Shown in pieces: positions 1-62,184 of a stretch of 64,000 nucleotides of DNA. Made by a program: the position numbers and the translations under genes. Source of the DNA: Chrysomallon squamiferum (taxonomy: Eukaryota > Animalia > Mollusca); NCBI GenBank assembly GCA_012295275.1, contig CM022665.1, positions 38,068,001-38,132,000 of the forward strand, read 5' to 3'. The notes beneath the pieces were generated by a model. It was given only the letters and a program-made list of their open reading frames with translations. It made no database searches and had not been told where the DNA came from. How positions within the stretch are numbered: the stretch's first letter is position 1; each line of letters opens with the position of its first letter.

Positions 1-2715
1 AACATTGTTTTATTGGAATTGTGTTTTCAAAACCGTATTAAAATCCAAATAATATTTAATATTACATATCAATGTCAATTTGCACTTCAACAAGGTAACT
101 GCTTTCTGTGAGTTAATGGAAATATTGAAAGTCACTATAAATAAGATAATCTTAGTTTTCTGTGTTAGTTTACACGTGGCTGGTTTATTGGTTTTTAGTT
201 TATTTTTATAACTTTTGAACTAAGATTAGAATTTATTAACCAGAAACTCAAAATACCTAACTGCCTTCTGCCAGCCAAGCAGAACTAAATGAAAGACTCA
301 ATTTAAGATAATTATATTATACTTCTGCATCATACTGAACATAATGTAACTGATTAGGTAATGGATCTGAAGCGTGATGGTATGCAAGATCAAATCATGT
401 CTGAGAGCCCATTGTTTCAGCCAGTGTATTATGACTGATTTATCAAAGTCTAGAGTCATGTGCTTTCCTGCCTGTGAGAATGTGCATATAAATGATTTCT
501 AGCTACTAACTGTTAAGGATAAGACATGAAATGACTGGATCAGGTTTCCTCAGACACCAGTGAGACATAATAACCATCAGTGTAAAACATTGTTAAAGTG
601 TTTTAAAACATCATTCCTGTGACAAATTATATTCATAACATTTTGCTGTAATTAGCATAGAAATGTTTAACTTGGCCTGTAGCACCAAATGACATGCATA
701 AATCCATTCATTCTTTCTTACTGAACCTTATAAATCAGACTGGTTATTATACATGTTAATTAAATCTAACATGCATGTTTCTTGTGACCTAAGTATGTTA
801 TTAATGGATTGGTGTTCTGGATCAGGTACAGAAATACCTGCCCATTTTAAATCTTAAAATTTTATAACTATAACTTGAAACCATTTTAATACAATGCTGA
901 TGGTATTACAGCAGTCTTGGGTTGCCTGGTTTGCAGAACAGCAAAGTCAGCATTTATCTGCAGCAGTAAGAAAAATATATCATTAATGCAGAAATTTTGG
1001 TTCTTCTTTGACTATATTACAGAAAACAGTTTTGTTATTTTATTTTTTACAGCCTAGAGTTGGAAACATGATAATAGTAACATTGTCTTGGAAGATGCCA
1101 CAAACAAAAATCTCTACTTTAAATTTTCTGTCCTTTTCTTTCTTTTCTTTTTTCTTTTATTATAGTTATTTTCTAAATTGCAGGCCTTCAAGCTGTAATT
1201 ATATTCTTTCAAAGAGAAAATAATTGATGTTTAGAAAGAGGTTTTTACACTGATTAAACAATTGAGGGATTTTTTATAATGACAAAGAAAAGAAATCAGT
1301 ACAAACAATACTGATATTAAGTGTATTCATTGCTGAGTTTTGAAGCAGTTATCTGGTTAAGAATTTCAGTTTCATATCTCTGAGAATGTCTCTGGGCAGA
1401 GTACTATTTAAAGCATACACTGACTGCAAAATAGGGTAGCTGCTTATATAATCTTGTAATCATGACTACTGTAATGTATATAATATAAATATTGTGATAA
1501 ACTACATTAAATATAGCTCAGTTAAAAATATATGTGCATAAAAATATTTTTTTGAAAATAAAAAGCAATGGTATTTAGAAACCATATACATGTATATTTT
1601 GGAAGACGTTTTGTTGTTATCATGGTGGACCTGAAGGTTTTCACTGGAAAATGCCATTGAGAATAAAACTGAACTGAATGAGAAATGTGGATACAGTAGT
1701 CCTAAAATCTGCAATACGTAATATGTTGGTATGTTCTGAATGAAAGACAACATTATTTCTTTTCTTTAGTTTCTGCATTGAAATGAATTAAGAATAAAAT
1801 AATGAAAAATCAGAAAAATATCAATTTAAAAAAAAAAAGTATATGGGTACCAACATTTTCAATTTTATTTTGGAACCATATTGAACTTTGTCTTGTCCAT
1901 GATGCCTCCAACATTTTGACTAAACTGACACAGCTTTTCTTGTTAACCCACACAAACTTTCCCATTTCTACACAGTGTCATTCGTGGCATCAGAGCTGAC
2001 TTTCATGTTGCCTGTAGCTCAGATGTTTCCATGGCTACTAAATGTCTGCCTTGGCAGAAGTCATATAAAGCTTTGACAAGCATTCATCAGCTTCCCGATG
2101 TGCATTATGAAGGTTTGTAATATAATAATATTCCTTAGATCAGGTGTTGCTGCTTGCCTGGCTTTGGTAATGTATAATTAAATTGTGATAGCATTATATG
2201 CAGAGAGATGGAATTACATCATGCTGTTACCTTTTACTGATGTAATAGGCTTCTTTTTTTTGTAAAGTGGAAAAAAAATAGAAATGGACAAAATGACTTA
2301 ATAAATGTTTCATGTTTCTGCTGTTGTTAGCTAAATATGGAAAAATAGATTCAGTTTACAAATAGATTACATGGAAGAGAAAGATGTGAAGAATAAAGAA
2401 GAAGAAATTAAATACAGAAATGATTTTTGTTTATGTTAGCTAACTTATGATACTTGCTAATAGTGATAATAAATAAAATGATATTTAGAATACTTTCTTT
2501 TCTATTTCTTCCTCACATGTCCACTGATTTGATTGTAAAGTGAAAGATGGAGTCTGAATTTAGAAATGAAGAGTTACATGCACTCCATTTTCTTAATCTT
2601 CTTCCAATTACTCCAAGTGCTACACTATTGAAACTGATAAAGTCAAGTTATAGACTTGACATGTGGAATAGTTCACAGCTAGAATAAACATTTAAACAAA
2701 CAAACTTAACTCTTG

Positions 2716-2747
<32 letters not shown>

Positions 2748-5528
2748 GACTCTCTCTGACTGTCTGACTCTCTTTGATTTTATCTTTCTGTCACATTTGC
2801 ACATTAAAAAGGTATTAAAAGAAAAGGACATATCTGATTATAGCAGACATCTCAGACTTCTGTTTTAGAGCACATGATCTGATATTAGTGACAAGCTATC
2901 TTACAAGTCATTACAGTGCAGTGGTTAATCACAGTCTTCAAGACTGATAACTTCAAGAATCACAGTTATATTCAAGTTCCTAGCCAGCCATAAATAGAAA
3001 AAGCATTATATCATCCCTATTAGTGGTGCTACGATATTAAAGACCATTCTTATCATTTAGCAAAATGTTATCTTTACATGCACATTCCCAGACATTAAAA
3101 GACAAAGGCCTTTAACACACTAAATTAACCAGTAACTTTGGCTGTAATATGAAGTAAACCTCTAGGTGTACTGTAAATGTTTGATTCTTCAACCTACTGC
3201 ACTTGGTTCTCTGCATTTTCATGGAACCACTCTGCTACAGGTTAAACTAACCTTCTTTAGAATGTCATTTTTCAGTGGATGCACCTTCACTAATTAACTG
3301 AAGTTCTGGATCATGAGTTATTAGTCTGAAGGAATTTGTTTGCACTAGAACTGTTTCAAAACACTGACAACATCAAGGTCAGAAGGTTGACTAATTGTTC
3401 ATTCATCACCATCAAAATCTTGTCAGGACACAACCACATTTAATATGAATTTCATTTTTAATCCAGACCCAGCAGCCTAATTTTCTCCTCTTTGCAATAA
3501 AGCTATTTCTATTTGTTGCTTTATGATATTGCAGGCTTTGAGTTATTACTCCAATAGGAAGAAGAAGAAGTAAAAAAGAAATCAATAAATGATGTAACTA
3601 TTGGAATATCAGTTGTAAATTACTGTTTAAATATTGTTAAGATACAAAGTGCTTTAACAATGATTCATCTACTGTTCTTGATTTCAAAGGAGAGACACAA
3701 AGACCAATGATTCTGCTGTAGGTTTTTGTTTGCTTTTGACATCACAAATGCAAGACTGAATAAAGAAAATTACAATGACTTGTCTCTCTAGCTTCTTTGA
3801 TGCAATGTGGGTAAACAAATATATATGAGGTTGTTTTTTTTGGTAAATGTTTTTCTAATTTGAAAACAAAGTAAACGATGTCTAATATTTGTTCAAATTT
3901 AGTTTTCACAATTTGCTGACAAAATATCCTCTGTCAGTCAGTTGAAATAATCTAATTTTGTTTTCTCAAGAACAGATTACAGTTTGTTTAGTTTTAATGA
4001 CTGCATTAAATATTAAAATACTAAAATGAGACACAGACAATAGATCTTGTATTCAGCTTTCAGATGAAAGACGTTTTCATTTTTATTTTTAAATGCAGAC
4101 AGCAGTAAAATAAGTAAAAGAATGGTTGATAACTATAGCTTTTATAAATATGACAGCACCTACCTTGACCTTTGATGCATGAATTACAAGTAGTAATACT
4201 CAGAATGTGTGTTTACTCAAATGAAAAATAATCTAGTGGGTACAATGATGTGGACTGATCATATGATCTTTTACTGTTCATATAAATAGTCCAGCATTGA
4301 ACTGCAGTCCATGACTAAATATCTGAAAGTAAGTTGTATGTACTGTGAGATATTTAATTTAAAAGTACCATGTCTTAAAGAGTTTTGAAAAAGATTTTGG
4401 AATCTGATTTTAAGCCTATTCTGTGAATAAAGGAACATATTTTAGTGCTTAAGCCTGTTTATCATTTACACTGAACGATTGTGTAGTCGAGCCAGTACTT
4501 CATGGCTGGTTTGATAAAATGAGAAGATGTATATAAAAACACCTTCTGCTGATCTAAAGAAAAACCAATTAAATAGCACAAATGGGTTTTCTTTTTTAAT
4601 ATCTGTATTTATTCAGTAACTGAAACAATTTCAGATGCTGATTTTAAAATTTATAAACAGTATGAATATTTTTGTAATTTTCTTTAGTAGAACTCTCCAG
4701 ATTTAATGACTGCAGTATTTATTTATTTGTTCAGTCGTAAGTTTACTTGACCATATGTCTGACACTGGAGAAGTAGATTTGAGAAAACAAATGTTGAGTA
4801 TGTTCTTAAATAAAACATTTCTTTCTTCTGCATGAGAAATGTGTATTTATCTTTAGAAAGTAATCTACTTCGACAGTTTTATTGTTTTGGTTGTATCATG
4901 TTATATCACGTAACTTATACCTTGCCCATTCACAATACAGCATTGTCATTAACCTGAAAGGTAAGATTATACAGGTGTGAAAAGTGGCAATCTGTACCTT
5001 GCAATGATATTACACCTGTTTGCTGCATGTCATTTACCTGGTTTATACCTGAATAGCAAAATGCTATTTCTATGCTTGAAAGCTACTATAATTAAAATGT
5101 CCACGTCTTTTCATTTGTCTTTAAGAAGAAAGATAAATGCAAATTTCAAAACTTGTAATGTTTTATATCTTATATACACTGATTTTGAGGGGTGTTCTTT
5201 CCATGCCATCACCTAATTCGTTTAAATACAGTGACTGTGGTCCTTTTTCTAAAATTCAGGGTCTTTATAGTTTGGTTTCTTGTTCTAGTAAGATTTCTGA
5301 AAATATATATTTTTTTAATTTTTATATCTTGTGCTTTTATTTTAATAAAGACCCAAAATTAATTTTTTTTATAAAATAAAAGAATATTTTTCTTTATTTT
5401 TATTTAATAAGTGCACTCAGCTTTTTAAATTAATTTTTGCATTTCAAAAATAAAATGATTTTTATTTTGCTTTACCACATTTTGGGATAGGCAATTATTT
5501 ACATCATTACTTTTGCCCCTGCTGATAG

Positions 5529-5567
5529 ACTGGTGTTAATATTCTGTGGTGCCAAATCAAATTTCCT
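5529..5567 (+). CDS. NRXN: candidate neurexin SS2-position microexon (TGVNILWCQIKFP)
   Basis: ttttgcccctgctgatag acceptor with two TGC motifs; CCT|gtgagt donor; 39 nt; phase 0-0, matching acceptor 7993. Confidence 0.42.
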
Positions 5568-7992
5568 GTGAGTGCCTAGTAGACTGTTCCTTTGTCATGT
5601 GTTATGTCATGTGCCTTTTGTGCCTAGAATAGATAATTACTTTTATCAATAGATTTTTATTTTTGCTTTTCTATTTTTCTTTCTTTTTGTTTCTAAGCCT
5701 TTTTTTTTTTTTTGGACCATTATAAATTTTCATATTTGTTTTTCATTAGGACATAACAAAAAAAAATTGTTTTACATTTTCTTTAAAAATAAAATTTAAT
5801 TAAATATTTATTTATTTATTTATTTATTTATGGTTCGGTAATTTTATTTTTGAAACAAGACATTGAATGCTTTGTTATATTTTGTCTTCTGTTCAGTTCA
5901 AAGTTTTGTTGAATGTTATTGCATGCTGACATTTTTACAAGTTGATGTATATATATTTTTAATTTAGGGAACTGAAATATCAACTGTACTTACTAAATAA
6001 TATTGATAAAAATGTTAACTAAACATTTTAATTGCCGTCTTTCTTTTTTTAACATTAGTTAATTAGAAATTTTAAAAATGTATTTACAATTGAAAATACA
6101 TTTTTTCATTCAAAAATTTTAAATTGGGTTTATCTATGAAATTTTTTTATTAAAATGGATGAATAATAACAATAAAATATTTTTGGTATTTATCTCTTGC
6201 TATTAACTGAATAGATTACTAGAAACAAAATATTGTTCTAAATATACATTTGCATAGAAATATTCCAATATTCAGAATTATTCACATCAAAGCTAAATAT
6301 TTATAAAAGCATTTGCCATTTGCAAATTACTAATACAGAAATTACTGAATGTGTCTAATATAAAAATGGAATTATGCAAAATAGTGTAGGTATAAACAAA
6401 TACTAAGTATTGTACACATGAAAATTGTTAGCTGAATATATGAAAGATCTGTCACCACTCACAAGTTATTTACCAAACTTTCCTGTTATAAACTAAAGAC
6501 ATGTCAATCAAACCAGGGGTTGTGTCATTCACAGCAGGTCACCTGGTAAATGAGCTGTCACATATGATGGCTTTTAAGTCCATTTCATCAGATAGGGGAG
6601 AAAAAAAATCAGCTTTCATCTCATCTCCCAAAGGATTTGGACATGTTGCTTTAAAGTTTAACTTTCAACATATGGGAAATTGAATTTTAGGTTTTGGTGG
6701 ATTCCCTTTGGCTTTTTTCCCAATCCAACATGCACTAAGGGATTGGCAAGCTAAAGAATATATTGGAAAGTCACATGTATACACATGCAGTTTAATGTAT
6801 TTCAAAGACATTATGCATTACCAGTGTAAACATATATATATACTCAGCATTATTGTATTACTACTGAAGGGTTACTTATAGTTATGTTCTACATTAAATC
6901 TATTTTACTAATGGGAAATTAAGTGGGTTTTTTGGAATAACTGTTATAAAATTTCCAATAAAGCACCTTGGATTTCAATGATGTAATATGTAGCCTCCTG
7001 TCCACCATTCCCTTATTTCATATCAGTGAGTTTATTTAAGTTTTATTACTACATTTAAGTTCTTATATTTAAGTTTTAATACAATATTGTCTCTAGCTGT
7101 TCCATTCTTTCCCTAATGCTTGTGTGTCTTCTTGATATTGTGTTAGTGTTTGGTGAAGGACTACAATGTAAAAAAATGTTTACTTAAAATATTTTTCCAG
7201 TTACTTCAAAGTAAAATAAAATTTAAAACATAATTAGAATTGTTTGAATTAGACTTTTACCTGCATAACATGATCCATTATATGGGAACCATATTGATTT
7301 TTGATTATGTGGCTTAAAACATTTGTTATCTTACTGACATGTTGGGCATATATATTACATGTAATATATTGATTAACTAACTGCTAGTTTTTTTTTTGTG
7401 AGTAATTTATATGTCTTCATAAAGAATTTTATTGAAAATGCAGACAAATACAAAAAGAGTAATGAAATCTACTAAATATCTTTATTTAAGAATTGCTGTA
7501 AAAATGAATGTCAGTTGTCATTTTGAAAAAATATACCAGGATTGTAACTGCTTTAAAAAGTCACTTGTTGTAATTGTTTTTGTTATTTCAGAACAATTTT
7601 TGTGCCACAGTATTTGTAAAACAGCCTTATATGCTTAGAAAATTAAGTAGACATGTTTGGTTTTGAGAGAAAAAGTATTGTTTTTTTGCATTAATTGTAA
7701 TTAAAGAAAACAAAACAACTCCTTTACACATAAAATTTGTTTCATAAAGAAATGTTTCTTTACATTTATTATATTACACAATGGAACACTGAAAGTAGTT
7801 TACAAAGTATTTCTATTTTTAAATACATATATACAAAATTTAAATGTTCAAAAAATGCTTGATATATTTCAGTTATTATACAAAAACCTATTTTATTTAT
7901 TTATATTATTTATTAAACCCCTGTAATGTAAATATATGTATTTCATAATGTAAAATGTATGTTTGGAGATAATGTGTGCTCTATACTTGCAG

Positions 7993-18648: not shown

Positions 18649-18757
18649 GTGTTAACTGTAGGTAATATTCTGAATGATGACCGATGGCACACTGTGTTTA
18701 TTAGACGTCGAGCACAGACTATAGAAATAGGAATTGACAAACACAGACCTGTCACAG
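18649..18757 (+). CDS. NRXN: alpha-neurexin exon, LNS4 middle (not in ORF track)
   Basis: tttcag|VLTVGNILNDDRWHTVFIRRRAQTIEIGIDKHRPVT|gtaact; matches LNDNEWHTVRVVRRG; phase 0-1. Confidence 0.94.
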
Positions 18758-20223
18758 GTAACTAACTAATTAACCTCACCAAGCACCCCAAAAATAAGTA
18801 TTGTCTAAACTGTAAGCTTAACTGACAAAGCTTTCTAGACAAACTTAGATGCAAACGCATTGCAGTGCAATTATATTGCTGTTACATGGACTAAATTCAT
18901 TAACCACATAGCATGTATAATCATCACTGTTACGTGCATATTAAAAAGCTTTCATGTGTAGTTATGTTAATTTGTTCACAGGTATGAGCTGTGATGTTAA
19001 AAGTTTTTGGGATAAGTCAGGTTTACAAACATTTCATAAATAATATAACTTACTGGGTGTTTTATTATTTTTATTATTTTTTTAAATATCTTTAAAAAAA
19101 TATCTTTATCTTGGTGCTAATATTAATTTTAATATGTATTTACATGTGTGTAAATATGTATATAATTACTTTGAGCATTTGTAAATTAGTTATCACACAC
19201 TTCTATATACAATAAAAGAATGTATAAATCACTTTGTAAGGTATGACTGATGTATTATGTCACTGACTGCATTAGCTCGTTTGACTTATTTTACATTACT
19301 TTTACTCTTGACAGTGAGAAAAATTGTGAACACTGCAGTGATTTATTTTTGATCTACTGTAAAGATGAGCATGTGACTTGGGGGCAAGAATGGGCAACAG
19401 CTTTCCCAAATATTAATAAAATAATGGGGAAAATTCAGGCAAAGCAAGATATTTATATTTTTAACTATGTAAAATTTGGGCAAATCAACCACTCTGCCCT
19501 CTTCATCAAAGAATTCCCATAATTATGCCCATGACCATAATCATAAAATTATTCAAGCATAATTGTTATTTCCCTTGTCTATGACATCACCAGGGACTTC
19601 TGTCCATAGCAGATATAAAAGTTGCCTTGTTTCTGTTTTAAATAAAGAGGAATTCTTAATGGTTGATATAAAAATCTTTGATTTCAGCCTTATTTTATAC
19701 ACTATTTCAGATACTACAAAATTTCATTATTTTTATGCTTTATACAGAAGAACCAATTTTTAATAGCATATTTTAAAAAACATTTTTCTTTCTTTGTAGA
19801 TTGGAATTAGACAATTTTTTATCAATGTACATTTCTATGCTTACATTTAAATTAAACACCATTTCTTTATTTATAATTTATATATAAAATATATAAGTGG
19901 TTTTTTTTTTGGTTTTTTTATCTTTTTTTTTTAATCTGCAATTTAAATTACAGTTGGTAATGTCTTGCAGTATCTATAATACTCTATTTTCAAAAGCAAA
20001 TTCATTATTTTGATAATTTAAAGTTATAATTTTTTGTTAATAATCTCATATTATGTTTAAGATCAAAAATAAATTTTGTATATAAATGACAATGCTGACA
20101 CACACACAAACAAAAACAAAAACCAGTAGAAAAGAAAAAAGCATCATTAGTTTCATGCACACCTGTCAGGTAAGTTTACACCTGTTAATTAGATTGTTGA
20201 TTTTCATTTGACTTGTGTTTCAG

Positions 20224-20298
20224 ACAAGCTTCCGGGCCAGGAGACCTCATTACAATCTAATGCCATAGTTCTTGGTTCAATAGATGCATTGAATCCTG
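20224..20298 (+). CDS. NRXN: candidate alternative neurexin LNS4 exon (DKLPGQETSLQSNAIVLGSIDALNP)
   Basis: gtgtttcag acceptor; G|gtataa donor; 75 nt; phase 1-1; aligns without gaps to the start of exon 22969. Confidence 0.6.
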
Positions 20299-22968
20299 GT
20301 ATAACAGTGTTCAGCATTTTCCTTCATCTTTGTCATTTGTCTTGTTTACCTTCTCATTTGTTTCGCATGAGATTTCTTTTTCTTTACTTTTAACCTTTGA
20401 CCTGTACAAGGTAGATCATTGAATGATCATGTAGCAATAATGGTTAAATTAGTGTTTGGTCCTTTTCAGTATAATCATAAGTTAGTTATAAGAAGATTGG
20501 TCTTAGTTGTACATGGAATGAGAAAAATACCATATGCCTACTTTTGCATGATATTTTCTACTTACAGTAATCTTTAGGGAGTGGTATCATTTTTTTTTTT
20601 TTTTTTTTTTATATAATGAAGCATATTTCAGTTTGACTGTTACATTACCCCAAATGACATTATTGTCATGGCCAGCACCATATTGCCATTTTCAGAAATC
20701 ATGGATCTACCCTGTCAGTGATAGGATATTGATGACAACCCATTCTGAATTCTTGCCAATATATCCTTAGTTTTGGGCTTGGATGACCATCATTTGATAA
20801 AGACCAGGAAAAAAAAAGAGCTTTAAACTGGTGCTGAAGAACATTTTTAGACAAGTAAATCAATAGGCTCCATTGAGAAGACATAATTTATATTGACCAG
20901 TGTTAGCCAAGTAGTTCATCAATGGATAAATAGTATATGGAAAATCTATGGAAAAAAGGTCTATGAGTTTTCTTGGCACCAGTACAAACTGACAGTTGAA
21001 AGACTGAATTCCACTTTTCCATGCTAAATTATCCTAATTTAGTTTGAAGGTTTTTAATGAAGTGTACATTTTTTATAATTTATATTGTATGTTAATGGTA
21101 TGTATTACAATAAATGCAAATGATAAATTGAATATTTAATATAGAAATATTAGGATTAAAAGGATTGATAAACATTGAAACAAACCAGTCATAGCCATTT
21201 AGGTTAAAGAATTTCCTAAACTGATACCTGCTTGCATGCTAGTTTTATATTATATTTCCCATCCAGACAGTCTTTTCTACCCACCTTGGACAGATGTCAG
21301 TTTTATGCTGTCTTGGCCTATACTAACAAAGTTCAGCATCTGGCTTTTGTGTAAATTACTGTATGTTTAAGTTTTTATGGTGGCTGTCACAGTTATTCAG
21401 GCTGGATAAGTCCTCTTTTACTTTATAAATTTTTTTATTTCATTTTATTTTTTATTTTTTATTTTTTAAAGTTTGTTAGAAGAATTATTTTTGTTCCCAT
21501 CATGTATTGTCAGATAAAGAGTTTTATGGCGCAATGTTCATAAATTTCTAGGATGTACATTGCTGTCAGTGGTCATCACAATTAAATCTTGTCTAATTTT
21601 CCTATGAAACTTATATAATTATATTCCATATGAACCAAATGACTGCCAAATATCACAGAATCAAATAAAGTTTTGATATAATGGTGGAATATAAGATCAG
21701 TGTGCCCTAATATATTGTTTTATCAGTTGTTAGTTAATAAGGTGCATAAAAGTATGACTCATCCCTAAACTTAAAGTAAGGCAAAGTTTCATAGATTACA
21801 TATACATAATCAAAATGCTGTTGATTAAAGAGTGGAACTGTCCTTAGGCAAAGTCTGGTGTCTGTTTGTCAAAGATTGTTTTGTTTAATATCAGTTAGAG
21901 TGCACTGGTTAATTTTCTGTCATCAGCTGTTAGACATCAGACATATGGTATTATTGACAAATAACTGTTACATGAAACTTGTGACATTTTTTTCAATTAG
22001 CTAGAAGTAATTGTTCTATAAATACCTTCCCAAGGTCAGACAAAACGTACAGTCTTTTATAACAAATCATGGGGCACTGAATGATGATGATAAGGAGAAG
22101 AGGTTAGTAAGAGCATCAATGAGGTTTGATCCAATAACCAGTGATGCCAGAGCTGTAACTATAGCTCTAATATTTCTCTATGTGTTTCATATTTTTGCTG
22201 ATGGTGCAACATATGTTAGTCTGGATAGGATCATTTCTTTTTTATGCTTCCTATTTTTAAACCAGTACCATTTCAGTTTTCTTTCCTGTATTAATTTAAA
22301 ACTGTTGTTATTCTCTTTGTACTTTTTTAAATTTAAGCTTCTGATGTCTGCATTGGAATGAGCAACTGAAATGTACTGTGGCTGATTAGCATATTGTCGG
22401 CCATGTTTTGTTTCTTCTTTGTTGCATTTTTATTGTAATTGGATAATGTTTTGTTTTTAAATAATAATTTTGCATGTGGTGTCTTGAATTATGGTCAAGT
22501 ATTTTGTATTTTTTTAATTTAATTTTTTTTTAACTTTATGTTATGTGTTTTGTTAAATTGTTTGCTGCATGAAAAAATTAAAATTTTATTATTTGAAATT
22601 TTAAAATTTTTATTTCCCACGGATATTTTTTTATTAATAAATATTGTTTATAATGAAATATTTTATTTATTTACTTATTATATAAATTTATTTATTTATT
22701 TATTTATTTATTTATTATAATTTATTTTAATTGCTGGATCTTAGTTCAAAATAAATATAATAAATAATTATAGTTTTGATAATAAAAATAAAAAAGATTT
22801 AGTACTAAAAGAATAAAATGATTAATAAAATTAATATAGAACAACAATATGAATCATTACTGTTTATTTACTTATTTATTTAATTATTTATTTATTTATT
22901 TAATTTCTGGTGCAAGTAATCTTGCTTCTGCTATGGAACATAACTTATATTTATTTCTTTCCTTACAG

Positions 22969-23727
22969 CTGATATGCCAGGAATATCAGATGAACTTGAA
23001 TTTCGAAACATTGAAATTGGTCACATGGTAAATGATGACAACTCTGTAGGAAAACATTCAGGATTCATTGGCTCCATGCAGCAGTTCATGTTCAACCAGA
23101 ATTTATTTTTTGAGATGGCACAATCAGGTAAAATAGACAATATTGACGTGACAGCGAAATTTAGCACTGACGAATATGTCGTCAGAGATCCCATCACCTT
23201 CAAATCAGCATCAGCATTTGCAATGTTAAATCGTCTCCAGATATACAAGGATTTTTCACTCTCATTTCAATTCAAGACAACTGAGGCAGATGGTCTGATT
23301 TTCTACAACGCTGGTAGGGGTCAGGATTTCTTTGCCATAGAACTCAAAGATGGGTTTCTTTACTATATCTACAACATGGGTGATGGCCCGCAGCAGATCA
23401 AAACCAACACACGTCAACCTCTCAACAACAATAAATGGCATGAGGTGCGACTACTGCGGACTGAGATATACAAACAGCTGATCCGAATTGACGACAACAC
23501 CCCAACAATTGACAATCTGTCAGGTGCTCAGGCTGTGAACTTTGACCTGGAAGGAAACTTCTTTGTTGGTGGAGTAAGAAAAACTATGTACCACTCACTG
23601 CCAAAACAGATCCAGTCAAAACATGGTTTCCTGGGATGCCTGGGGTCTCTGGATCTCAATGGATATCTTCCTCAGGTTGTGAAAGATGCTGATACCATAC
23701 ATCAGTCTGTTGTTGAAGGTTGCAAAG
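22969..23727 (+). CDS. NRXN: alpha-neurexin exon: LNS4 end and LNS5
   Basis: ttacag|ADMPGISDELEFRNIEIG...DPITFKS...FQFKTTEADGLIFYNAG...GFLGCLGSLDLNG...VEGCK|gtgaga; phase 1-1. Confidence 0.97.
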
Positions 23728-25497
23728 GTGAGACTTGTTGATGACTAACTCTAATTTAGTCCAGTCTACCTATCTACCTGCCTGTGTACCTATCTATCTG
23801 AATATATACACACACACCCACACATTCATACATATATACTTATAATATCTGTCTGTCTCTCTATGTATCTGCCTCTCAAAGTACGTATCTATCTCTCTGT
23901 CTAGATCTTCATGTTTCTTTATATTTGCCAATTGCCAATGAACAATTTTTGATGGAATAATATTTACCATTAAACCCACTATAATATATTTGGTCAGACA
24001 AAACTTTATTACACAACTTTGAAATGCATTTGCTTCCTGATGCTAAACCAGACGCAACATCTGACACCGCAATCAATGTTATGAAACAAGCTTATTTTAA
24101 AAGCAAATTGCCAGACTCTGAAAGACCTTGATAAGATAATTATTTTCTTTTGCCTCAGAGAAAGAGAGGGCATCAAGAAATAATATTCAAGAAATGAGTT
24201 GTAAATGTTATGTCCTTAGGAAAATATACTCTCCTGACTTTGGCTATGGTATATGAAAATATTTTAGTTATTTTTGAAAACTGATTGAAAATACTTTCTC
24301 TTTTTGGTCTTTTTTTCTTTTCTTCATCCTTTCTTTCTCCTTCTCTGTATCTTTGCTTCTCTCTTTTTCTGGCTCTACTCTCTCTTTGTCTTTCTTTTTC
24401 TCTATTTTCTCACTTACATCCACTGTTACAGACACAGAATACTAAATTTTGTTATTTTCATATCATTTCCTAAAAATAATTATCTTTCTTCTTTCTTTTT
24501 TTTTTTTTCTGTTTCAAAATTCTGTCCATAAATATAAACAAAAAATTGATTTCTGCTCATCTTAAATTCTCAGCCATTTCCAAGAACTTTTCTATGGTGC
24601 CATTTCCCAGGAAATGAAAATAATTGAATTGTATTTTTGGTTTGTAATCAAATATATACTCAATCTCAAATGCATTTCAGTTTTAAATCAAATTATAAAA
24701 ATATCAGAAATCTTTGAACAAATTGCATGGTTCATCTTTATTGCTTTTATTTGTGTCCTTCTCATTTGTATAAAACATGTTTATTTCAAAATTTATTTTA
24801 AATTATCTGTTAGAAAAGTTATAAATGACAGAATTAAATCCATAACAAGTTGACAGTTTTGTAAGGAGTGGAGCCAAATTTCTTTTGACCTGAAAGATCA
24901 CCATAATTTATTTTGTTTATAAAAAGTCTGACTGAAATATTAATAATATAAGAATATATTTCATCTTAAGCTACCGTTAGAATTTTTTTTTTTTTTTTTA
25001 TTATTTGCAGTATATTTTAAATTATACATCTATGTTTATAGGGCTTTTAAAATACTTTTATCATTCTAGTAAGTCAGTAATCATACCTATTAATTGAGTA
25101 ATATTTTATTCAAAAATTAATCATCATTTATTTTGTGTCCATAAAAAAAAAATCCCCATTCCAACCAGTGTCTCAAGATTGTTTGTTAATACCTGTGCTT
25201 CATACTCTCCTACCTAATGCTATGTTATAGGAGTTTTAACATACAAAACATACCTGGCTGTTAATGAAAAAATGTGATATGTTTATGTGAAAGCTAAATA
25301 TCAAATTAAAAAATATATGACATGATAGCTAATAATGAAAATTAAATAATGTGTTTTAGTTGTGTCATAAGGGAAAATAAACAATGACTTTTCACTTTCA
25401 TATATTTATTGTCATCACCATCATTATTGTTGTTGTTGTTATTATTATTATTATATCAGTGGTGCTGGTGGTAGTATTGTTTATTTTCCTTCGTCAG

Positions 25498-30931: not shown

Positions 30932-30967
30932 TCTTCTCATGGCTTTTGGATGAGGTCTATGACCCAG
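30932..30967 (+). CDS. NRXN: candidate neurexin SS4 microexon (VFSWLLDEVYDP)
   Basis: tttacatttcttag acceptor; CCAG|gtaaaa donor; 36 nt; phase 1-1; no stop; WLLD shared with the vertebrate SS4 insert. Confidence 0.72.
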
Positions 30968-35474: not shown

Positions 35475-36272
35475 CAAAGAAAACAAGCTATTCCACAACA
35501 GCATTTAAAAAGACACTGGAGACACAGAAACACAGTAACAGGAGGAAGAGAACAAAGAAGAAGAAGAAGAGGATATCTCAACCATCATGAAACAAACAAA
35601 ATTTCTGCTTTCGTTCCTTATGAAAACAAGGACAACAGAAACCTCAGACCCTTGGTACTTAATCCTAGGATTGTGGCTCTCCCACCAGAAGAAGAAAAAC
35701 CCAAAAATACAAGTGAAAGCACCAGTTCAAGATCTAATTGGCAGAACAAGATAGATATCTGGAACAAAGTTAAAGACACTTATGTAAATAAGGTTATCCG
35801 TGGAGTCCCCACCCCAAGGACTGTGAGTAACTCAGTGTCCACAAAGGCTCACTACTGTTCTTTTCAAGTTGGCTCAGATGAGTACTTCCAGTTGAAGGCA
35901 CCAGTAGTATTTGATGCAGTACATGAAGGAAGTGCTGATGGCAAAGGTGATGATGAAGATGATGATTATGACAGTGATGGTGGTGGTGATGAGTTTACTT
36001 GGATGAAGTCTACTGCAAGCATGACAGATGATGTCACTACAAAGAAGACCACTGTTTCCAGTCATGATCAGAATATGATTAAATCTCCCATTCCACCGCT
36101 GACTAAACATGACTCAACAACGTGGAGAATGGTTAATGATAGTTTAATACCAACATACTGGACACATGCTCAACAAGTGACTCAACACAATCAGGATACT
36201 TACACCAAACCAACACTGGTTTCCTCCAGACATCTCAGAGTCACCTTGGCAACAACTATTTCCAGTTTCATG
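35475..36272 (+). CDS. NRXN: candidate large alternative neurexin stalk exon (266 aa; or terminal exon ending at stop 36312-36314)
   Basis: gtgcag acceptor in phase 0; 798-nt stop-free frame that is GC-richer than the intron; phase-0 donor ATG|gtatcc; Ser/Thr-rich, acidic and poly-Arg segments. Confidence 0.62.
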
Positions 36273-38844
36273 GTATCCATTTCTGCCTGTTATGTTTGGC
36301 ATGATCAGACCTAGATGCCTGAATTGAGTGTTCTGTAGTTGGGTACACTCTATAGCATGCTCTTTTCAATATTATAACCCAAAACATAACATAGCTTGGA
36401 TAAACTTTCAAATAGTTTTTAAATCATTCTTAAAAATAAAAAACAAATCGTGAATGAAGGAAGAATCATAAAAGTGTCTAGCTTGTAGATGAAAACAAAA
36501 TCATAAAATCAAAAATGTAAAATTTATGCATTCATATTTCAGTTGAACTCATCTTTTATTACAAACTGTCATCTGAATAGCATGTTTAGAGTCACGTATT
36601 TGTTTTGGACAGTTTATGTTTTTATCTGATTTAAAAATTCTCTATACAGTGAAGTCTGGATAAAACTAACCCAGGGTTCTGATAAATCAGAATAACTTGT
36701 CAGTACATTCACTATTCAGTATTTGACTTCTTTATCTATAACTATAATTAATAACCACAATTTATCATATTTTAACTATTACTGTTAACTTTTTAACTTG
36801 CAAAAAAAAATGAAACAGTTATTTTACGTAGAACAGACTCATAAGGCTTCATGGGCATCTACAACAAAAAAGAAAAAAAAAAGAAAAAGGAATATAAATG
36901 AACCTTGACTGTTATTTGTTTTTATGTATTAATAATATAAATTTGGACAGAATTCCAGGATTTACCCTTTAAAGAATATTATAGTAACGGAACTATATTG
37001 TTACTATTTGTAAACTAAGAAAAACAAATTTTAATAATAATATCGGACTCTGTCATACAAGCTCATGTAATGTCATCTATAAACACTGTCTTTGGGGAGT
37101 TCAGATGGGAGATGTATTTTTTTATCATTATTTAAAATATTTTATGAGCAGAATCTTTGATACATTTTACTTATCTCAGCCCAAAATTCTATTTTCCTTT
37201 CAGTACTACTAAACAATTAAAAAGCAAATATTATTTCTTTTCCATATACACACATATTTTATTGACCGTGTTCTTGAAATCTGCTTCTCTTAATTCAAAG
37301 CATTGTCCTCAATGAAAATAAATTAGAATTACATTCCCAATTTCCTCATTTGTCATATATTTCAGTTTCTAACAATTAATTTATTGATTTAAATATAAAG
37401 AAAACATATAGTCCAGACTGACAGGGTTGATTGCTTTGTAGCTGTTATACAAAAAAAAAAAAATGTTTATTTTATTGAATTGAGTTTGCATGTATTATTT
37501 TTGTTTTTAAATTAAAAATAATTTTACTAAATAGTATAAATAAAAAAAAAACTGTTAAATTTATTTTATGATAATCATAACATTTTTCATTTAAATTTAA
37601 ATTTTTTTGTTTGTTGTTTTAATTATTTATAATTGTCAGTAAAATTGTTTTAAATTTCATAATACTTTATAGGTTGCTAGCTAAAATTGCATGCTTCATT
37701 TTGAAATAATAATTTTTATTTTTTGTGTTATGTGCCAGTGTGTTGTCAGCCTAACAAAGCTTATGTTCTTATAGTGCATGGTTTTCAACATCCACTTCAA
37801 AACAGAACAAAAAAATAATAATAAATAATACCAAAAATACAAACAAAAATAATTTAATATTATTCCTAACTGCAAGTACACACAATTTAGGTCTCTTAAA
37901 TCTAGAAAATCTGTACAGTTTATATAATCAGTGTAAAACAGATGCATATCTTTAAGGTTTTTGGAATTTTTTTTGGTGCATCAGCAATTTCTTTTGTCTT
38001 TTCTGAACATTATACAAAGTCATACATCAAATTAAAGATAAGTTTAGTACTTATATTACTAATAACATAAATTTATCCATGTCAACCTCTGTAGTACAAT
38101 GGTTAGGTTGTCTACCTTCAGATCTGTAAGTCCTAGGATCACATCCCAATACTGGCTAGAGCCTACATAACTTACTGGAGATGTTTAGCATGATTATATC
38201 TTTCATTCTAAGTAATTCTAATGACTGTGTTCAGGTCAGACAACAAAATAAAAATATATACTTCATGAAACTTGTTTTTAAAGGAAAATAGATAGGCTGA
38301 TTAATACTTTATTGAATATGTTTGGATTATTTGCCCATTTAAGATGAACCTTTAGAAGAAATAATGATATTTCAAATGGTTGATCTCACAAAACGTAGCT
38401 TTCTCTACATTTTTAAAGAACCTGTTTTTCTGTCTGTCTTTGTTCTGTTTTTGTCTGTTATGTCTGGACCATATCTTTTATTTAAACTGGAGAAAGTTTA
38501 ACATTGGGTTTTATCTGTTCACCCATCTTAAAAGACAAGAAAAATATCATTTAAACCAAATTATTATCTACTGAAAATATATACCAGGGTACAAATGGAT
38601 AAAAACTTAAATAGGTAAATAATGACTTACAAATGATGATAATCCAAATTTTTTATCTCTTAAACAGTGACAGTGATTTACTTGTAACAGCAAAAAATAT
38701 ATATATTAAATAAAACAATTTTCTTTTTAATTTTTCACTTTAATCTTGCTACATTTAATAAATTTGGTTAGAGTGTTTTTCTGAAATGAAGGACTTACTA
38801 TTAAGGTATTTTTTTCTCCCCTCTACTATGGCATGCTATATCAG

Positions 38845-52978: not shown

Positions 52979-54429
52979 CAGTGGTTCTCAAAGAGTGTGC
53001 CGGAGACCTACTTAACTGTGCCCCACGAAATTCTAGGATCTAGGTAGATATTTGTGATGATAAAAAAATTGATTATGTTAAGACGGAAAGATATCCAGGA
53101 AGAAATAGCCGGTTGCCTAGAAGAAAATTTTAAACACGTTGTAAACTCATTCGAATCGAGTTCTGGCTGATGAGCAAGTTCAGCTGCTCAAGGCTGCACA
53201 GTAGTTTACCAGTGACAGTATCAGTGATAGGGTATATCGGTGAACATCTCTCACACAAGGAGGGTAACTCTAAATATATCGGTGAACTCCTCTCACACAA
53301 GGGCGGTAACTCTAAATATATCGGTGAACATCTCTCACACAAGGAGGGTAAATCTAAATATATCGGCGAACACCTCTCACACAAGGACGGTAACTCTAAA
53401 TATATCGGTGAACACCTCTCACACAAGGGCACTAAATATATCGGTGAACATCTCTCACACAAGGGGGTTACTCTAAATATATCGGTGAACTCCTCTAAAT
53501 AACTCTAAATATATCGGTGAACATCTCTCACACAAGGAGGGTAAATCTAAATATATCGGCGAACACCTCTCACACAAGGACGGTAACTCTAAATATATCG
53601 GTGAACACCTCTCACACAAGGGCGGTAACTCTAAATATATCGGTGAACATCTCTCACACAAGGAGGGTAACTCTAAATATATCGGTGAACACCTCTCACA
53701 CAAGGGCGGTAACTCTAAATATATCGGTGAACATCTCTCACACAAGGAGGGTAACTCTAAATATATCGGTGAACACCTCTCACACAAGGGCGGTAACTCT
53801 AAATATATCGGTGAACATCTCTCAAAAATATATCGGTGAACATCTCACACACAAGGGCGGTAACTCTAAATATATCGGTGAACATCTTTCACACAAGGAG
53901 GGTAACTCTAAATATATCGGTGAACACCTCTCACACAAGGGCGGTAACTCTAAATATATCGGTGAACATCTCTCACACAAGGAGGGTAACTCTAAATATA
54001 TCGGTGAACACCTCTCACACAAGGGCGGTAACTCTAAATATATCGGTGAACATCTTTCACACAAGGAGGGTAACTCTAAATATATCAGTGAACACCTCTC
54101 ACACAAGGACGGTAACTCTAAATATATCGGTGAACACCTCTCACATAAGTGCGGTAACTCTAAATATATCAGTGAACATCTCTTACAGAAGAAAAACAAA
54201 CGGTAGAGATTCCAGACGAGAACCGATTATACGCGAAATGATGAAGAATCTGACATAGATGTAGACAATGAGGATAGACAACCGATTCAGCCACAATATC
54301 CTTCTTTCAGTTATTTTTGTATTTTTTTACATTTTGCATTATATTTCATAGCATTTTGTGTGTAGTGTGCCCGCAATTTTTTGTAAGGCTTCAAGTGTGC
54401 CCCGACTTCAAAAAGTTTGAGAACCACTG
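52979..54429. mobile_element. non-autonomous hAT-type DNA transposon with internal minisatellite
   Basis: Perfect 14-bp TIRs CAGTGGTTCTCAAA (52979-52992) and TTTGAGAACCACTG (54416-54429); subterminal GTGTGCC/GTGCCCC motifs at both ends; no transposase; TSD not cleanly preserved. Confidence 0.78.
53233..54187. repeat. 42-bp minisatellite, roughly 23 copies
   Basis: Unit TATATCGGTGAACA(T/C)CTCTCACACAAGG(A/G)(G/C)GGTAACTCTAAA; accounts for the repetitive ORFs on both strands. Confidence 0.97.
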
Positions 54430-57349: not shown

Positions 57350-57534
57350 AAGATTCTGACTACATATGGCGATTTGCCGGCCCGATTATATAACCCGGTT
57401 CGAAGGTCTGGAAGGCAAACCGGAAATTTTGTACAGCGTTGTTGTCGATTGCGTAAACATAATAATTGTTTGTAATTATTTATTTTTGCACATTTATCTG
57501 TGCCTAATAAATGATCCGTTTCTTTCACAAAATT
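57350..57534 (+). promoter_or_regulatory. CpG-rich TKFC promoter/5'UTR
   Basis: CpG-dense; ATGGCG (YY1-like) at ~57366 and CCGGAA (ETS-like) at ~57420, upstream of the ATG. Confidence 0.45.
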
Positions 57535-57745
57535 ATGTCTCATTCTGCACAAACGAAGAAGCTTGTCAATTCGGTTAACAAGTGTGTCGATGAATGTTTA
57601 GCGGGATTTGTTGCAACGAATCCTGGACTGCGTCTTCTGGAAGGTCATAGAGTTGTGCTGCGGACTGACGTAAACGACGTCATCAAATCCGGAAAAGTGA
57701 CGTTGTTATCAGGCGGTGGTTCCGGACACGAACCGGCACATGCAG
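57535..57745 (+). CDS. TKFC: triokinase/FMN cyclase (dihydroxyacetone kinase), exon 1
   Basis: [14 protein letters not shown]...[18 protein letters not shown]|gtaaat; DhaK signature GGGSGHEP. Confidence 0.96.
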
Positions 57746-58128
57746 GTAAATTTAGTCTTTTTATTAATAAATTGTTTTAATAGTTCAGGACAGCAGCTTA
57801 GTTAAATTTAACTACCAGTAGGGGTGTGTGTGTGTGTGTGTGTGTGCGCGTGTGTGTGCGCGCGTGTGTGTGTGCACTCATGCACACACAGGCACATACA
57901 TTAACTGATGTGTCAATCTGTAGCAGAAAGAAAGAGAGATGGAGGCAACTTCTGAACAAATATCTTATTAAGTAAATTCAGGTTTTTTTCTAACAGTCTA
58001 ATTAAGGCATGTTAGAAACTACTTTTCCATTTCAGTAGTTTTATTTTACTTGTTTAACTTTCATCTGACATTGTTATGTTACATTTGATGTTATTATTCA
58101 CCAATTCTGTTTCCCCTGTATCTGACAG

Positions 58129-58239
58129 GCTATGTTGGACAAGGTATGCTGACAGCGGCCGTGGCAGGGTCTGTGTTTGCATCACCTCCACCACAGAGCA
58201 TCCAGTCAGCAATCAGAGCCATTGGTAAAAACAATCCAG
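58129..58239 (+). CDS. TKFC: TKFC exon 2
   Basis: gacag|GYVGQGMLTAAVAGSVFASPPPQSIQSAIRAIGKNNP|gtagca. Confidence 0.95.
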
Positions 58240-58658
58240 GTAGCATTTTATATTAAATATGATTATTTCACATACACTGTGTTTTAATTTAGCAGTAAAT
58301 AGATTTATTAGTTTATTCAGATATTCACCTCTCTGTGATACCTAACAGTGTCTGTAATCTTTTGCTGAAGTGTTAATGAATATCCATTAATTAATTAATT
58401 CAAGAGAACTACACAAGGCAAACTGGACTTATTCTTTTCTTTGTTAGTAATCAGCAAATAGTATCTTTATTGTTCTGTCTTCTACTCTCCCCTTTTGGTC
58501 TGTCTCATTCTTTTCTTTTTCTTTCATTCTCACTCTGTCACTCTTTATGTATTTGTTCATGTATTTCTGTTAATTTATTGCTTTAGTCTCTGTATATGTC
58601 TGTATCTGTCACTATTGTTTTGTGTGTATTTTACTTTTAATTGTTGTTTTTCTTTCAG

Positions 58659-58843
58659 CTGGTGTATTGGTGATTGTTAAGAACTACACAGGTGATAGAT
58701 TAAACTTTGGTCTGGCTGCAGAGAGGGCCAAGGCTGAAGGAATCAAGGTTGATGTGGTTGTTATAGGGGAGGACTGTGCGCTCACTTCCACTGACAAGAC
58801 AGCTGGCAGGAGAGGTCTTTGTGGAACTCTCCTTATTCACAAG
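58659..58843 (+). CDS. TKFC: TKFC exon 3
   Basis: tttcag|[25 protein letters not shown]...[14 protein letters not shown]|gtaata. Confidence 0.96.
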
Positions 58844-59091
58844 GTAATAAAATGTTCAACTCTTCTTATTCATAAGGTAACATATTTTTTTTCTCTCCAG
58901 ATTTGTTAATGTAATTAAATTATAGTGTACTTATTCAAAATATAATACATAAACTTCTTTTTCATAAGGTAATAAAATCACTGGGATCTTGTTCATAAGG
59001 AATAATAAAACCATTAAAACTAACAAATACAAATTAATTTGTTTCAGATGTTAATCATCTCTTGTGTGTTGGAAATAAATCTTTCTTTTTT

Positions 59092-59185
<94 letters not shown>

Positions 59186-59217
59186 TATATCTATTTATTT
59201 AATTTATATAATTACAG

Positions 59218-59296
59218 ATAGCAGGATCTCTTGCAGAACAAGGAGCCAGTTTGGAAGAAATTGTCAAACAAGTAAAAATAGCTTCTACAAAAATGG
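59218..59296 (+). CDS. TKFC: TKFC exon 4
   Basis: ttacag|IAGSLAEQGASLEEIVKQVKIASTKM|gtaaga. Confidence 0.93.
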
Positions 59297-60846
59297 GTAA
59301 GAGTAAAACATAGTTTGTTATTTTACTAGATTCAATTTCCATAATGTTTTATTAAATTTTATTCTTGATGGTATCTGTTGTTTACAAAAAAAAATTAAAA
59401 TCTTAAATAAATTTGGTATGTTTCCAGTTAAATGATTTGTTTCTTTAGCTGTCATGAATTCAGTATTTGCTGATAATAAAGTATGAACATTCAGTAACAA
59501 AGATACTAATGTTATCTGTTTTGTGTTGTCATCACGTTCAGTGATTGACGAAGTTTATACAAGACTGAGGATGCTGACTTTGTGCACTGATGTACTCAGT
59601 CTGTCAGAGTTTTTTTTAACAAATAATGTGATAATCTTCTGTTATTATCTTCAAAAGTTTGTTATTTTATTTTCATACTTTATTATTAGCAAATACTGGT
59701 CAAAAGAATTAATGAAAATAATAATTTGAAAATATTCTAAATGTATATTAGGTATTTATTCATTACTGTCACAATTACACTTAAAATGCAGAAAAAATAA
59801 AAATGTTTAATGGGTACTTAATTTAACTCCAATGGGAGTTTTATATATGTTTTAGTATATAATTTTTGTTTTATGTATTACTGCTATTTTAAGAATTTAA
59901 AAAAAAAAAACATTTTTCTGATAACAACATCTGTTGCCTATCTAAATATAATTTAAATATTATTGTGTTCAGTATTGAATTAAAATTATAATGCTTATAA
60001 AAGCCCATTTAGAAATAGAAATTAATAACATTCTTTATACCTGAGCTCTAAAAAGAATTGTTTTTCTTTCAATCTTGCCTTGATGTCAGATTCATTAAAT
60101 GAATAATAAATTTTAGGGTATTTCATTATTATTATTATTATTACATTTATTTATTTATTTTTACCTTTTGTCTTGGGCTTAGTTTATTTATTGATGTTTT
60201 AATGGTAAAGTTTCAATCAGTCTCAAATCTCTATAAATGTTTGTTTTAATCATAATATTTCAGTCACTCATTTAATGGATATTTTCATTTTAAAGACTAT
60301 ATCCATTGCACACATACAGTTTGTTGTAGACACTGTGTTAAAGATAATGTATCTGTTGCTCAATCTCTATATTATTGTTAATTTAACAGATAATATTTCT
60401 AATGTTCAGTCTGTATATATAGCTGTTTTAAAGATAATGTCCAGTTCCTCAGCCAGTATAGACTTGTTTTAAATATTTTTATTAAATCTTGTTTTTATCA
60501 AATCTGTTTTAAAATCAGTGTCTATCACTCATGTATTTTAATGGTAAGTCAGTGTAAACATATTTTAGTGGTAAGTCTGTGTAGACTTGTTTAAAGATAA
60601 GTACATGTAATTAGTTTTCATTATATAATTATGTAATAGGAATTTATTTTGATTTCTGTTTGTGTACAATTTTTTTTCTATTTTTTTATTTTTTTATTAT
60701 TATTATTATTATTACTATTTTTAAAAATGTATTATTATTATTTTATTTTATTTTATTTTTATTTTATTTTTTTTTATTTTATTTTATTTTATTTTTTAAT
60801 TTCCTTATAATTAACATTAAAATTGTAATTATTTTTGATGATACAG

Positions 60847-60936
60847 GTACTATTGGTTTGAGTTTATCACCATGCAGTGTGCCAGGTATGGGACCATCTT
60901 TTCAGCTTGGAGCAGATGAAATGGAACTAGGCTTAG
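60847..60936 (+). CDS. TKFC: TKFC exon 5
   Basis: atacag|[30 protein letters not shown]|gtaaga. Confidence 0.95.
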
Positions 60937-61178
60937 GTAAGATTATATATTAATTTATTATTGTATTATTTTTATTTATCTCTCTACAGTATCTTATTCA
61001 TCCATCTTTCATCAGGGTTTTGGGATTTTTTTTCATTGATGAAGTTAGTATACAGTTTGCATACAATCTTTTTATAGAAATAATTATTAATTTAATTAAT
61101 TACTGATACCATTATTTTAATTTGTTATCCTAAATTATTTTTGTTTTTTAATTATTATTATTATTATTATTATTACAG

Positions 61179-61213
61179 GTATTCATGGAGAAGCAGGAGT
61201 TAAAAGATTAAAG
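61179..61213 (+). CDS. TKFC: TKFC exon 6 (substrate-binding His motif)
   Basis: ttacag|GIHGEAGVKRLK|gtttgt; GIHGE motif. Confidence 0.93.
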
Positions 61214-61523
61214 GTTTGTTTACAGTTGTTTAAGCTTGAATGAGCTAAATCCTTTAATTATTATTTCTTTTGTTATTATTTTTTTGTTTGTTTATTTATT
61301 TATTTATTTATTTTTAGTAAGTGATTTGAGTTCAGTTCTTGTATATATCACATTTAATTTAAATTTTTTGATTTTTTTTATGTTAGGTTTATTTAATTTA
61401 CAAAACTAATAATAAATTACTTTTAATTTCATTTCTAAGATGTGCCTTAAGAAAATATTTTCTAATTTTAATTTTTAATATTTATTTTATTTTATTAAAT
61501 GTACATGTATATTTTATATTCAG

Positions 61524-61608
61524 TTAGCAAGTGCCAAGGACACTGTACAGATAATGTTGGACCACATGCTCAACACAAACAACAGCACTCATTTGTCTGT
61601 CAAAAAAG
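61524..61608 (+). CDS. TKFC: TKFC exon 7
   Basis: attcag|LASAKDTVQIMLDHMLNTNNSTHLSVKK|gtttgt. Confidence 0.9.
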
Positions 61609-62094
61609 GTTTGTAGATAAAATTTTTGAATTAAAACTATCCTGAACTGTCAAACATTTTAAACCCCATCAGACATATATATATATTTAAATCTGGTAAA
61701 AAAAAATGTAAAAAATTCTTCTTAAATTTACTTGAATTTTTGGTGTATAATATCAATGTAAATATAGCTCATATATCCAAAATATTAGTTTGTATAGTCT
61801 TTATTTTTGTTTATATGTATATGATTCATCTTCACTTTTATAATTATTTTTATGCCATTATTTTTATGTTTTTAAAAATGTTATAACTGTAAATAAAGAT
61901 ATTTATTTTTTATTATTTTTAAAAACAAATTTTATACATATATTTATTTATTTTATTCAGTTATTTAATTTTTTGGTTTTTTTATTTAGTTATTTTTTAA
62001 ATTATTTATTTATTATTTTTTTTTTGATATTTTTTAGACAACTGGTTTATTAACACAGATACTTTTTTATGATAAAAATTATTTTCTGTTTCAG

Positions 62095-62184
62095 GTGATG
62101 GTGTGTGTTGTATTGTGAACAATCTTGGAGGGACATCTGTGTTAGAAATGAACATCATCACAAATGAGGCAGTCACATATCTCG
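62095..62184 (+). CDS. TKFC: TKFC exon 8
   Basis: tttcag|GDGVCCIVNNLGGTSVLEMNIITNEAVTYL|gtaatt; VNNLGG.S.LE motif. Confidence 0.94.

What the first reader, a model, noticed from the sequence alone, without database searches (positions are those of the whole stretch)
20224..23061. Exon-swap switch in LNS4: a paralogous 75-nt exon that could replace the 5' end of the next exon through an internal acceptor
Seen: exon 20224-20298 reads DKLPGQETSLQSNAIVLG-SIDALNP and aligns without gaps to the start of exon 22969, ADMPGISDELEFRNIEIG-HMVNDDNSV (PG, L, I and G in register; vertebrate GQMAGDHTRLEFHNIETG). Exon 22969 contains in-phase internal AGs just after that segment: actctgtag|GA at 23048-49 and cattcag|GA at 23060-61. 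Splicing 18757>20224 and 20298>23050 would give ...ALNP-GKHSGFIG, replacing 27 codons with 25. Inference: a mutually exclusive strand swap built from a cassette exon coupled to an alternative acceptor, at a position that is not one of vertebrate SS1-SS6.
Basis: partly seen in the sequence, partly recalled or inferred. Interest (0 to 1): 0.82.

Follow-up and report, generated by a model that had tools for sequence, protein, structure and literature searches.

The report
Duplicated-strand cassette exon in mollusc neurexin
This mollusc neurexin gene has an old 75-base optional exon that adds a second, diverged copy of one stretch of a domain; relatives splice it in front of the original or skip it, and the extra copy likely pushes the original out of the fold, though no splice-level swap was seen.

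Summary
Exon 20224-20298 ('A') is real. It lies in LNS4 of a molluscan alpha-neurexin and resembles the start of exon 22969 ('B'). The proposed swap through an internal acceptor is not supported. Of 126 molluscan proteins spanning the site, 111 carry A followed by B-derived sequence, 14 skip A, 1 is an odd prediction and 0 have the swap form. RNA contigs of two runs show 18757>22969 and run unbroken past 23050/23062; none showed A. The two internal AGs are weak. Any swap likely happens in the protein. AlphaFold2 builds one copy into the core and leaves the other disordered, A or B depending on the alignment given. A's glycine is invariant in 18 of 18 A+B sequences. In mussels, several clams and octopods B's strand has decayed and all 47 such proteins include A. 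The stretch maps to the loop equivalent to the LNS6 calcium ligands. The exon is already in public gene models; 10 paper searches found no description. The scan noted a parallel strand duplication in arthropod LNS3 (e1-9811007).

The parts
18649..18757 (+). Constitutive LNS4 exon upstream of the site (phase 0 to phase 1)
   Evidence: tblastn 83-86% to Haliotis/Patella; its 3' end is the loose end of RNA contigs at exon B in X1 and X2
20224..20298 (+). Cassette exon A, 75 nt, 25 codons: second copy of the LNS4 strand-loop-strand segment plus a short linker
   Evidence: AG/GT ends, open frame; orthologous segment in 111 of 126 molluscan proteins; inclusion not seen in this organism's RNA (only exon B was laid)
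22969..23021 (+). Segment B: first 18 codons of the next exon, the ancestral copy, orthologous to the single segment of fish, hemichordates and arthropods
22969..23727 (+). Large exon: end of LNS4 and LNS5
   Evidence: 76% to Patella, 74% to Haliotis; RNA contigs cover parts of it and show the 23727 donor joined to the EGF3 exon
23048..23049 (+). Internal in-phase AG proposed as acceptor; no evidence of use
   Evidence: 7/17 pyrimidines, rank 11 of 42; contigs run through it
23060..23061 (+). Second internal in-phase AG; no evidence of use
   Evidence: 8/17 pyrimidines, rank 5 of 42; contigs run through it

Best explanation
Exon 20224-20298 is an ancient cassette exon of molluscan alpha-neurexin, likely born by partial tandem duplication of the next exon's 5' end, that relatives either skip or splice in front of the whole next exon, and when included its copy likely takes the core position in LNS4 and loops the original segment out. 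Shown: the exon, its conservation, skip and tandem-inclusion forms in relatives, and the skip form in this organism. Inferred: inclusion in this organism (about 0.9); origin by duplication of B (about 0.75); A rather than B in the core where both copies are intact (about 0.6; close to forced where B has decayed). If A takes the core, it would replace the loop E-L-E by S-L-Q at the position equivalent to the LNS6 Ca2+ ligands and expose about 25 extra residues, which would tune the ligand surface of LNS4.
For: Isoform classes 111 / 14 / 1 / 0 of 126. Both forms occur in Patella, Haliotis, Biomphalaria, scallops and Crassostrea. The Aplysia neurexin record NP_001240692/ADM64537 and long Logan ORFs carry A+B. 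Skip junction in X1 and X2. HMMER aligns both copies to overlapping parts of 3QCW. A scores best against LNS4 for 16 of 22 sequences with non-mollusc references. A's Gly is invariant in 18 of 18 A+B rows, B's is not. With an A+B-only alignment AF2 puts A in the core (strand 120-128, pLDDT about 90) and B (132-159) under 50; that model matches 2R16 at Z 27.7, rmsd 1.2 A over 169 of 175 residues. All 47 proteins whose B strand motif is lost include A (Mytilus 16, Mya/Mercenaria/Ruditapes/Dreissena 14, Octopus/Argonauta 15, Elysia 1, Nucella 1).
Against: With an alignment of 20 B-only rows AF2 puts B in the core (145-152) and disorders A (115-140) in Patella, at the same confidence (77.0 vs 77.8). 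So the models show that either copy fits, not which one does; species and alignment both differed between the two jobs. The link between B decay and loss of skipping is not significant by lineage (5 of 7 vs 0 of 3, P=0.17; score test P=0.18); the per-protein P=0.001 is pseudo-replicated. A outscored B against the outgroup in only 11 of 22 genes. Against mollusc references A ties between LNS4 and LNS2 (11 vs 11; the window's A scores 18.0 on LNS2, 15.4 on LNS4), so its source is not proved by sequence. P0263 lacks A yet has a shortened B. No A-containing RNA contig was seen in this organism. Most isoforms are automated gene models.
Confidence: 0.62

Rival explanations
1. Plain insert: A is a real cassette but loops out while B stays in the core, so inclusion only adds a surface loop in species that keep both copies.
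For: AF2 with B-only rows. B of the window, Patella and the Sepia-like transcripts matches the outgroup as well as or better than A. B is the ancestral copy.
Against: A keeps the LNS core pattern and an invariant Gly across gastropods, bivalves and cephalopods, which a loop would not need. B must stay intact for the skip form anyway. B has decayed in at least three lineages that keep A.
Confidence: 0.17
2. Two-state switch: in the A+B protein both registers are populated, and Ca2+ or a ligand would shift the balance, a natural form of alternate frame folding.
For: AF2 builds both registers at equal confidence. Both copies are intact in limpets, abalones, pulmonates, scallops and oysters. The Sepia-like transcripts (6 of 6 with A) keep a strong B without a skip form seen.
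Against: AF2's choice follows the alignment, a known weakness for such systems (PMC12344692, passages). Skip isoforms alone explain why B is kept. No dynamics data.
Confidence: 0.13
3. One reading: A is coupled to an internal acceptor (20298>23050 or >23062) and replaces B at the splicing level.
For: Both AGs are in phase and the product would have a near-normal length. Rare junctions can be missing from gene models and contigs.
Against: 0 of 126 and 0 of 26 proteins have this form. Weak, chance-level AGs. Contigs run through both sites. The flanking residues are not conserved.
Confidence: 0.04
4. A is a dead or near-silent relic in this species.
For: Both RNA contigs at B's 5' end are the skip form; the donor GTATAA is non-consensus.
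Against: Open frame, intact AG/GT and 54-64% identity to orthologues inside A+T-rich introns; depth was only 3-7.
Confidence: 0.04

Closest known systems
Vertebrate neurexin splice site 4 (SS4, LNS6)
   Same: Cassette insert near the ligand/Ca2+ surface of an LNS domain. The mollusc LNS4 intron lies 3-4 residues upstream of the SS4-equivalent position when LNS4 and LNS6 are put in register. That the SS4 insert replaces strand beta10 (Shen 2008, Koehnke 2008/2010) is recalled; those papers were not held.
   Different: Other domain (LNS4) and other lineage; the insert is a paralogue of the adjacent segment; and it has become the only intact copy in some lineages.
Mutually exclusive tandem duplicated exons (PMC9741552, passages)
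   Same: A homologous segment encoded twice in tandem, ancient, giving isoforms that differ in one element.
   Different: Not mutually exclusive at the RNA level: B is the 5' part of a large constitutive exon and stays in every form seen.
COE/EBF H2d-H2a duplicated exon (PMC2394523, abstract and outline)
   Same: Tandem exon duplication with both copies included and a drift to mandatory inclusion.
   Different: A helix in a transcription factor; here beta-strands that compete for one slot, and inclusion is still optional in many lineages.
Engineered alternate frame folding switches (PMC12344692, passages)
   Same: Duplicated segments that can fold into one site in a mutually exclusive way, leaving an orphan.
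   Different: Engineered, with copies at opposite termini; here natural, internal and splice-controlled; switching not shown.
Honeybee neurexin I alternative exons (PMC2570956, passages) and scan note e1-9811007 (arthropod LNS3 strand duplicate)
   Different: LNS3 first strand in arthropods, not LNS4. The arthropod proteins examined here lack A.

Membership tests
alpha-neurexin (neurexin-1 type) | LNS-EGF-LNS repeats, stalk, transmembrane segment and short PDZ-type tail | tested here: met
   Exons for the end of LNS2 through the C-terminus (EWYV) map in order at 7993-41469; the N-terminal part was not found in the window
alpha-neurexin (neurexin-1 type) | Domain with the site is LNS4 | tested here: met
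   Alignment to 3QCW/3R05; the orthologue's model ranks 2R16 (LNS4) first
Cassette exon | Frame-preserving exon with both inclusion and skip products | tested here: met
   Both forms in five lineages; in this organism only the skip form was seen
Mutually exclusive duplicated exons | The two segments are homologous | tested here: met
Mutually exclusive duplicated exons | The copies do not occur together in a transcript | tested here: not met
   64 proteins hold A and an intact B strand motif together; 0 of 126 are A-only
Cassette coupled to an alternative 3' splice site | Internal acceptor used, strong or conserved | tested here: not met
   orthologous DNA could not be fetched, so conservation was judged from residues only
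Vertebrate SS1-SS6 | Same position as a canonical site | tested here: not met
   SS3 lies before exon 18649 in the 3R05 alignment, about 36 codons upstream; the SS4-equivalent intron is 27146|32169; the locations of SS1, SS5 and SS6 outside LNS4 are recalled
Strand displacement by a splice insert (SS4-like) | Insert occupies a core strand and expels the resident one | tested here: inconclusive
   AF2 gives either register; conservation favours A
Alternate frame folding switch | Both folds populated and interconverting | not testable with these tools
   needs NMR, HDX or single-molecule data

The most novel reading that the evidence does not exclude
A natural, splice-installed alternate-frame-folding element: inclusion gives LNS4 two competing copies of the strand-loop-strand that carries its Ca2+ loop, the protein flips between them under Ca2+ or ligand control, and lineages have resolved the competition differently (both kept, or A fixed and B decayed) since before gastropods, bivalves and cephalopods split.
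Probability: 0.15. Interest if true: 0.8.

Novelty: new variant of a known kind. Interest (0 to 1): 0.5.

Why it matters
A 2025 review still says extensive neurexin splicing appears exclusive to vertebrates (PMC12665717, passages), although honeybee data already disagree (PMC2570956). This is a conserved splice site in LNS4 of Aplysia, Lymnaea, Octopus and other molluscs, at a place vertebrates do not vary. It gives a small, testable case of a simple cassette exon acting as a substitution in the folded protein. It also gives a natural series, from both copies intact to B lost, of how a duplicated strand takes over a fold. No ligand for invertebrate LNS4 was identified here, so the physiological effect is open.

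Tried and rejected
No genome is held for the window, so orthologous introns and the codon at 23046-48 could not be compared. Reads could be laid only on 22920-23790, so exon A's own coverage is untested. DNA likeness of A to B is slight (25 of 75) and was not used. A score test of B decay against skipping was not significant; 1 of 12 planned outgroup rows dropped out there. 36 of 162 molluscan proteins and 121 of 147 representatives did not span the site and were left out. A scan for other frame-preserving cassettes in the two flanking introns gave only two overlapping candidates sharing one donor (21267/21294-21350), not followed up. Look-ups of earlier findings by sequence and by 'swap' words returned nothing. 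Ten paper searches showed no description of this exon in their listings. Shen 2008, Koehnke 2008 and 2010, Choi 2011, Chen 2011, Miller 2011 and Reissner 2013 were not held; Choi 2011 (Aplysia neurexin) and its supplement could show the insert. No complex prediction was run, as no binding claim is made.

Full report
Setting. The window (28.5% G+C) holds the 3' part of an alpha-neurexin gene on the + strand, with exons from the end of LNS2 (7993) to the stop (41469) mapped by tblastn. The best relatives are Patella (76%) and Haliotis (74%), so the organism is a mollusc, likely a gastropod. The site lies in LNS4.

Observation. The coordinates, frames and translations are right. Exon A (20224-20298) is 75 nt, phase 1 to phase 1, and is 64% and 54% identical to Haliotis and Patella. 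A and the first 18 codons of exon B share 5 of 18 residues without gaps (shuffle P=5e-4), and each matches 11 single-copy arthropod segments far above shuffles. phmmer aligns both copies to overlapping residues of bovine neurexin 3QCW. Against the matching segment of each of the six LNS domains, 22 A sequences scored best on LNS4 in 16 cases with 13 non-mollusc references, but tied LNS4 and LNS2 (11 and 11) with 5 mollusc references. Adjacency and the shared phase-1 acceptor favour duplication of B's 5' end, since the LNS2 segment lies inside an exon; this is inference.

The internal acceptor. Both AGs exist and are in phase, but exon B has 12 in-phase YAGs. The two candidates have poor pyrimidine tracts and rank 11 and 5 of 42 on a crude matrix from 14 acceptors of this gene. 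One would fall in a window of this size 35-49% of the time. In RNA runs X1 and X2 (one study, depth 3-7) the contigs reaching B's 5' end continue into exon 18649-18757, the skip form, and cross 23050 and 23062 without a loose end.

Relatives. Of 162 molluscan proteins fetched (unnamed ones assigned by similarity), 126 span the site. Of these, 111 include A, 14 skip it, 1 is an odd gene prediction and none has the swap form. Both forms are listed for Patella, Haliotis, Biomphalaria, scallops and Crassostrea. Most are automated models; the Aplysia record and the long Logan ORFs are closer to direct transcript evidence. Arthropod, hemichordate and fish proteins have one copy, though several carry other short inserts at the same place. 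Among 147 further representatives, 26 span the site: three are A+B, none is A-only, and P0263 lacks A with a shortened B. Two unnamed A+B proteins (P0257, P0267) branch next to the gastropod-bivalve-cephalopod clade in a FastTree tree of 28 proteins (support 1.00 for the joint clade, 0.86 for the inner one), so A may be older than that clade.

Which copy folds in. An LNS domain has one slot for this segment (established fold knowledge), so in A+B one copy must be left out. In 18 A+B sequences A's glycine is invariant and B's is not. In 47 of the 111 A-containing proteins the B strand motif is gone (Mytilus, Mya, Mercenaria, Ruditapes, Dreissena, Octopus, Argonauta, Elysia, one Nucella paralogue), and no skip form is listed for those genes; there A almost has to be the core copy. 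By lineage the association is only suggestive (P=0.17). AlphaFold2 on Haliotis LNS4 with A+B rows put A in the core and left B disordered, and that model fits 2R16 at 1.2 A over 169 residues. On Patella LNS4 with 20 B-only rows it did the reverse at equal confidence. Either copy is thus predicted to complete the fold. Which one does so in this species is inferred, at about 0.6 for A.

Likely effect. Tanaka 2011 (PMC3084293, passages) lists Ile1208 and Asn1210 among the LNS6 Ca2+ ligands; I take these to be the I-F-N motif (matches recalled beta-neurexin I236/N238). With the domains in register, that motif corresponds to E-L-E in B and S-L-Q in A. Displacement would therefore change the loop at the ligand and Ca2+ surface and add a loop of about 25 residues. 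Wilson 2019 (PMC6856630, passages) places beta10 of LNS2 at the strand in which, by alignment, A begins. The effect on binding is untested.

Comparison. It works like vertebrate SS4 if the recalled beta10 replacement holds, but it is not an SS1-SS6 site. It is not a pair of mutually exclusive exons (feature tested, not met). It resembles the COE/EBF duplicated exon (PMC2394523, abstract and outline) and engineered alternate frame folding (PMC12344692, passages). Other papers seen as passages only: PMC3229692, PMC10084454, PMC4183798, PMC2570956, PMC5563082, PMC9741552, PMC12665717; none of the passages describes this exon. No supplements were read. The scan's note e1-9811007 describes a similar duplicate in arthropod LNS3; I did not test it.

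Verdict. The exon and its paralogy are real and ancient; the splice-level swap is not supported; a fold-level replacement is the best reading. New variant of a known kind, interest 0.5.

Noticed in passing
window 30932-30967 (+): Candidate 36-nt phase-1 cassette exon in the LNS6 intron equivalent to vertebrate SS4; reads VFSWLLDEVYDP and resembles the 12-residue Octopus insert at the same place; Biomphalaria has a 14-residue insert there.
   Followed up: partly
window 20167-20175 (+): A consensus CAG|GTAAGT lies 54 nt upstream of exon A's acceptor; AGGTAAGT occurs only twice on the + strand. Possible decoy or recursive site regulating A; a 19-nt exon ending there would shift the frame.
   Followed up: no
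window 35475-36314 (+): Long Ser/Thr-rich open frame with a good acceptor in the stalk region, at the place where Haliotis and Biomphalaria have optional inserts of 237 and 252 residues; donor not determined.
   Followed up: partly
P0043/P0003, P0062/P0059, P0081/P0020, P0100/P0110, P0147/P0114, P0205/P0203: A 9-residue optional insert at the SS2-equivalent position of LNS2 in six mollusc lineages; no matching exon was found in window 1-7960.
   Followed up: partly
P0062 vs P0053, residue 474: Biomphalaria has a 9-residue optional insert at the start of LNS3 that looks like a second strand copy, echoing note e1-9811007.
   Followed up: no
P0128/P0130, P0173/P0230, P0139, P0030: Lepidoptera (+3), Oratosquilla (+15), Anoplophora (+6) and Glandiceps (about +7) carry unrelated short inserts at the same LNS4 position, so this intron may be a recurrent splice hotspot.
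   Followed up: no
window 53130-54258: Tandem array of roughly 36-nt units seen as repetitive open frames on both strands.
   Followed up: no
window about 57500-63400 (+): Exon-like frames of a second gene that read like dihydroxyacetone kinase / triokinase (name recalled, not tested).
   Followed up: no
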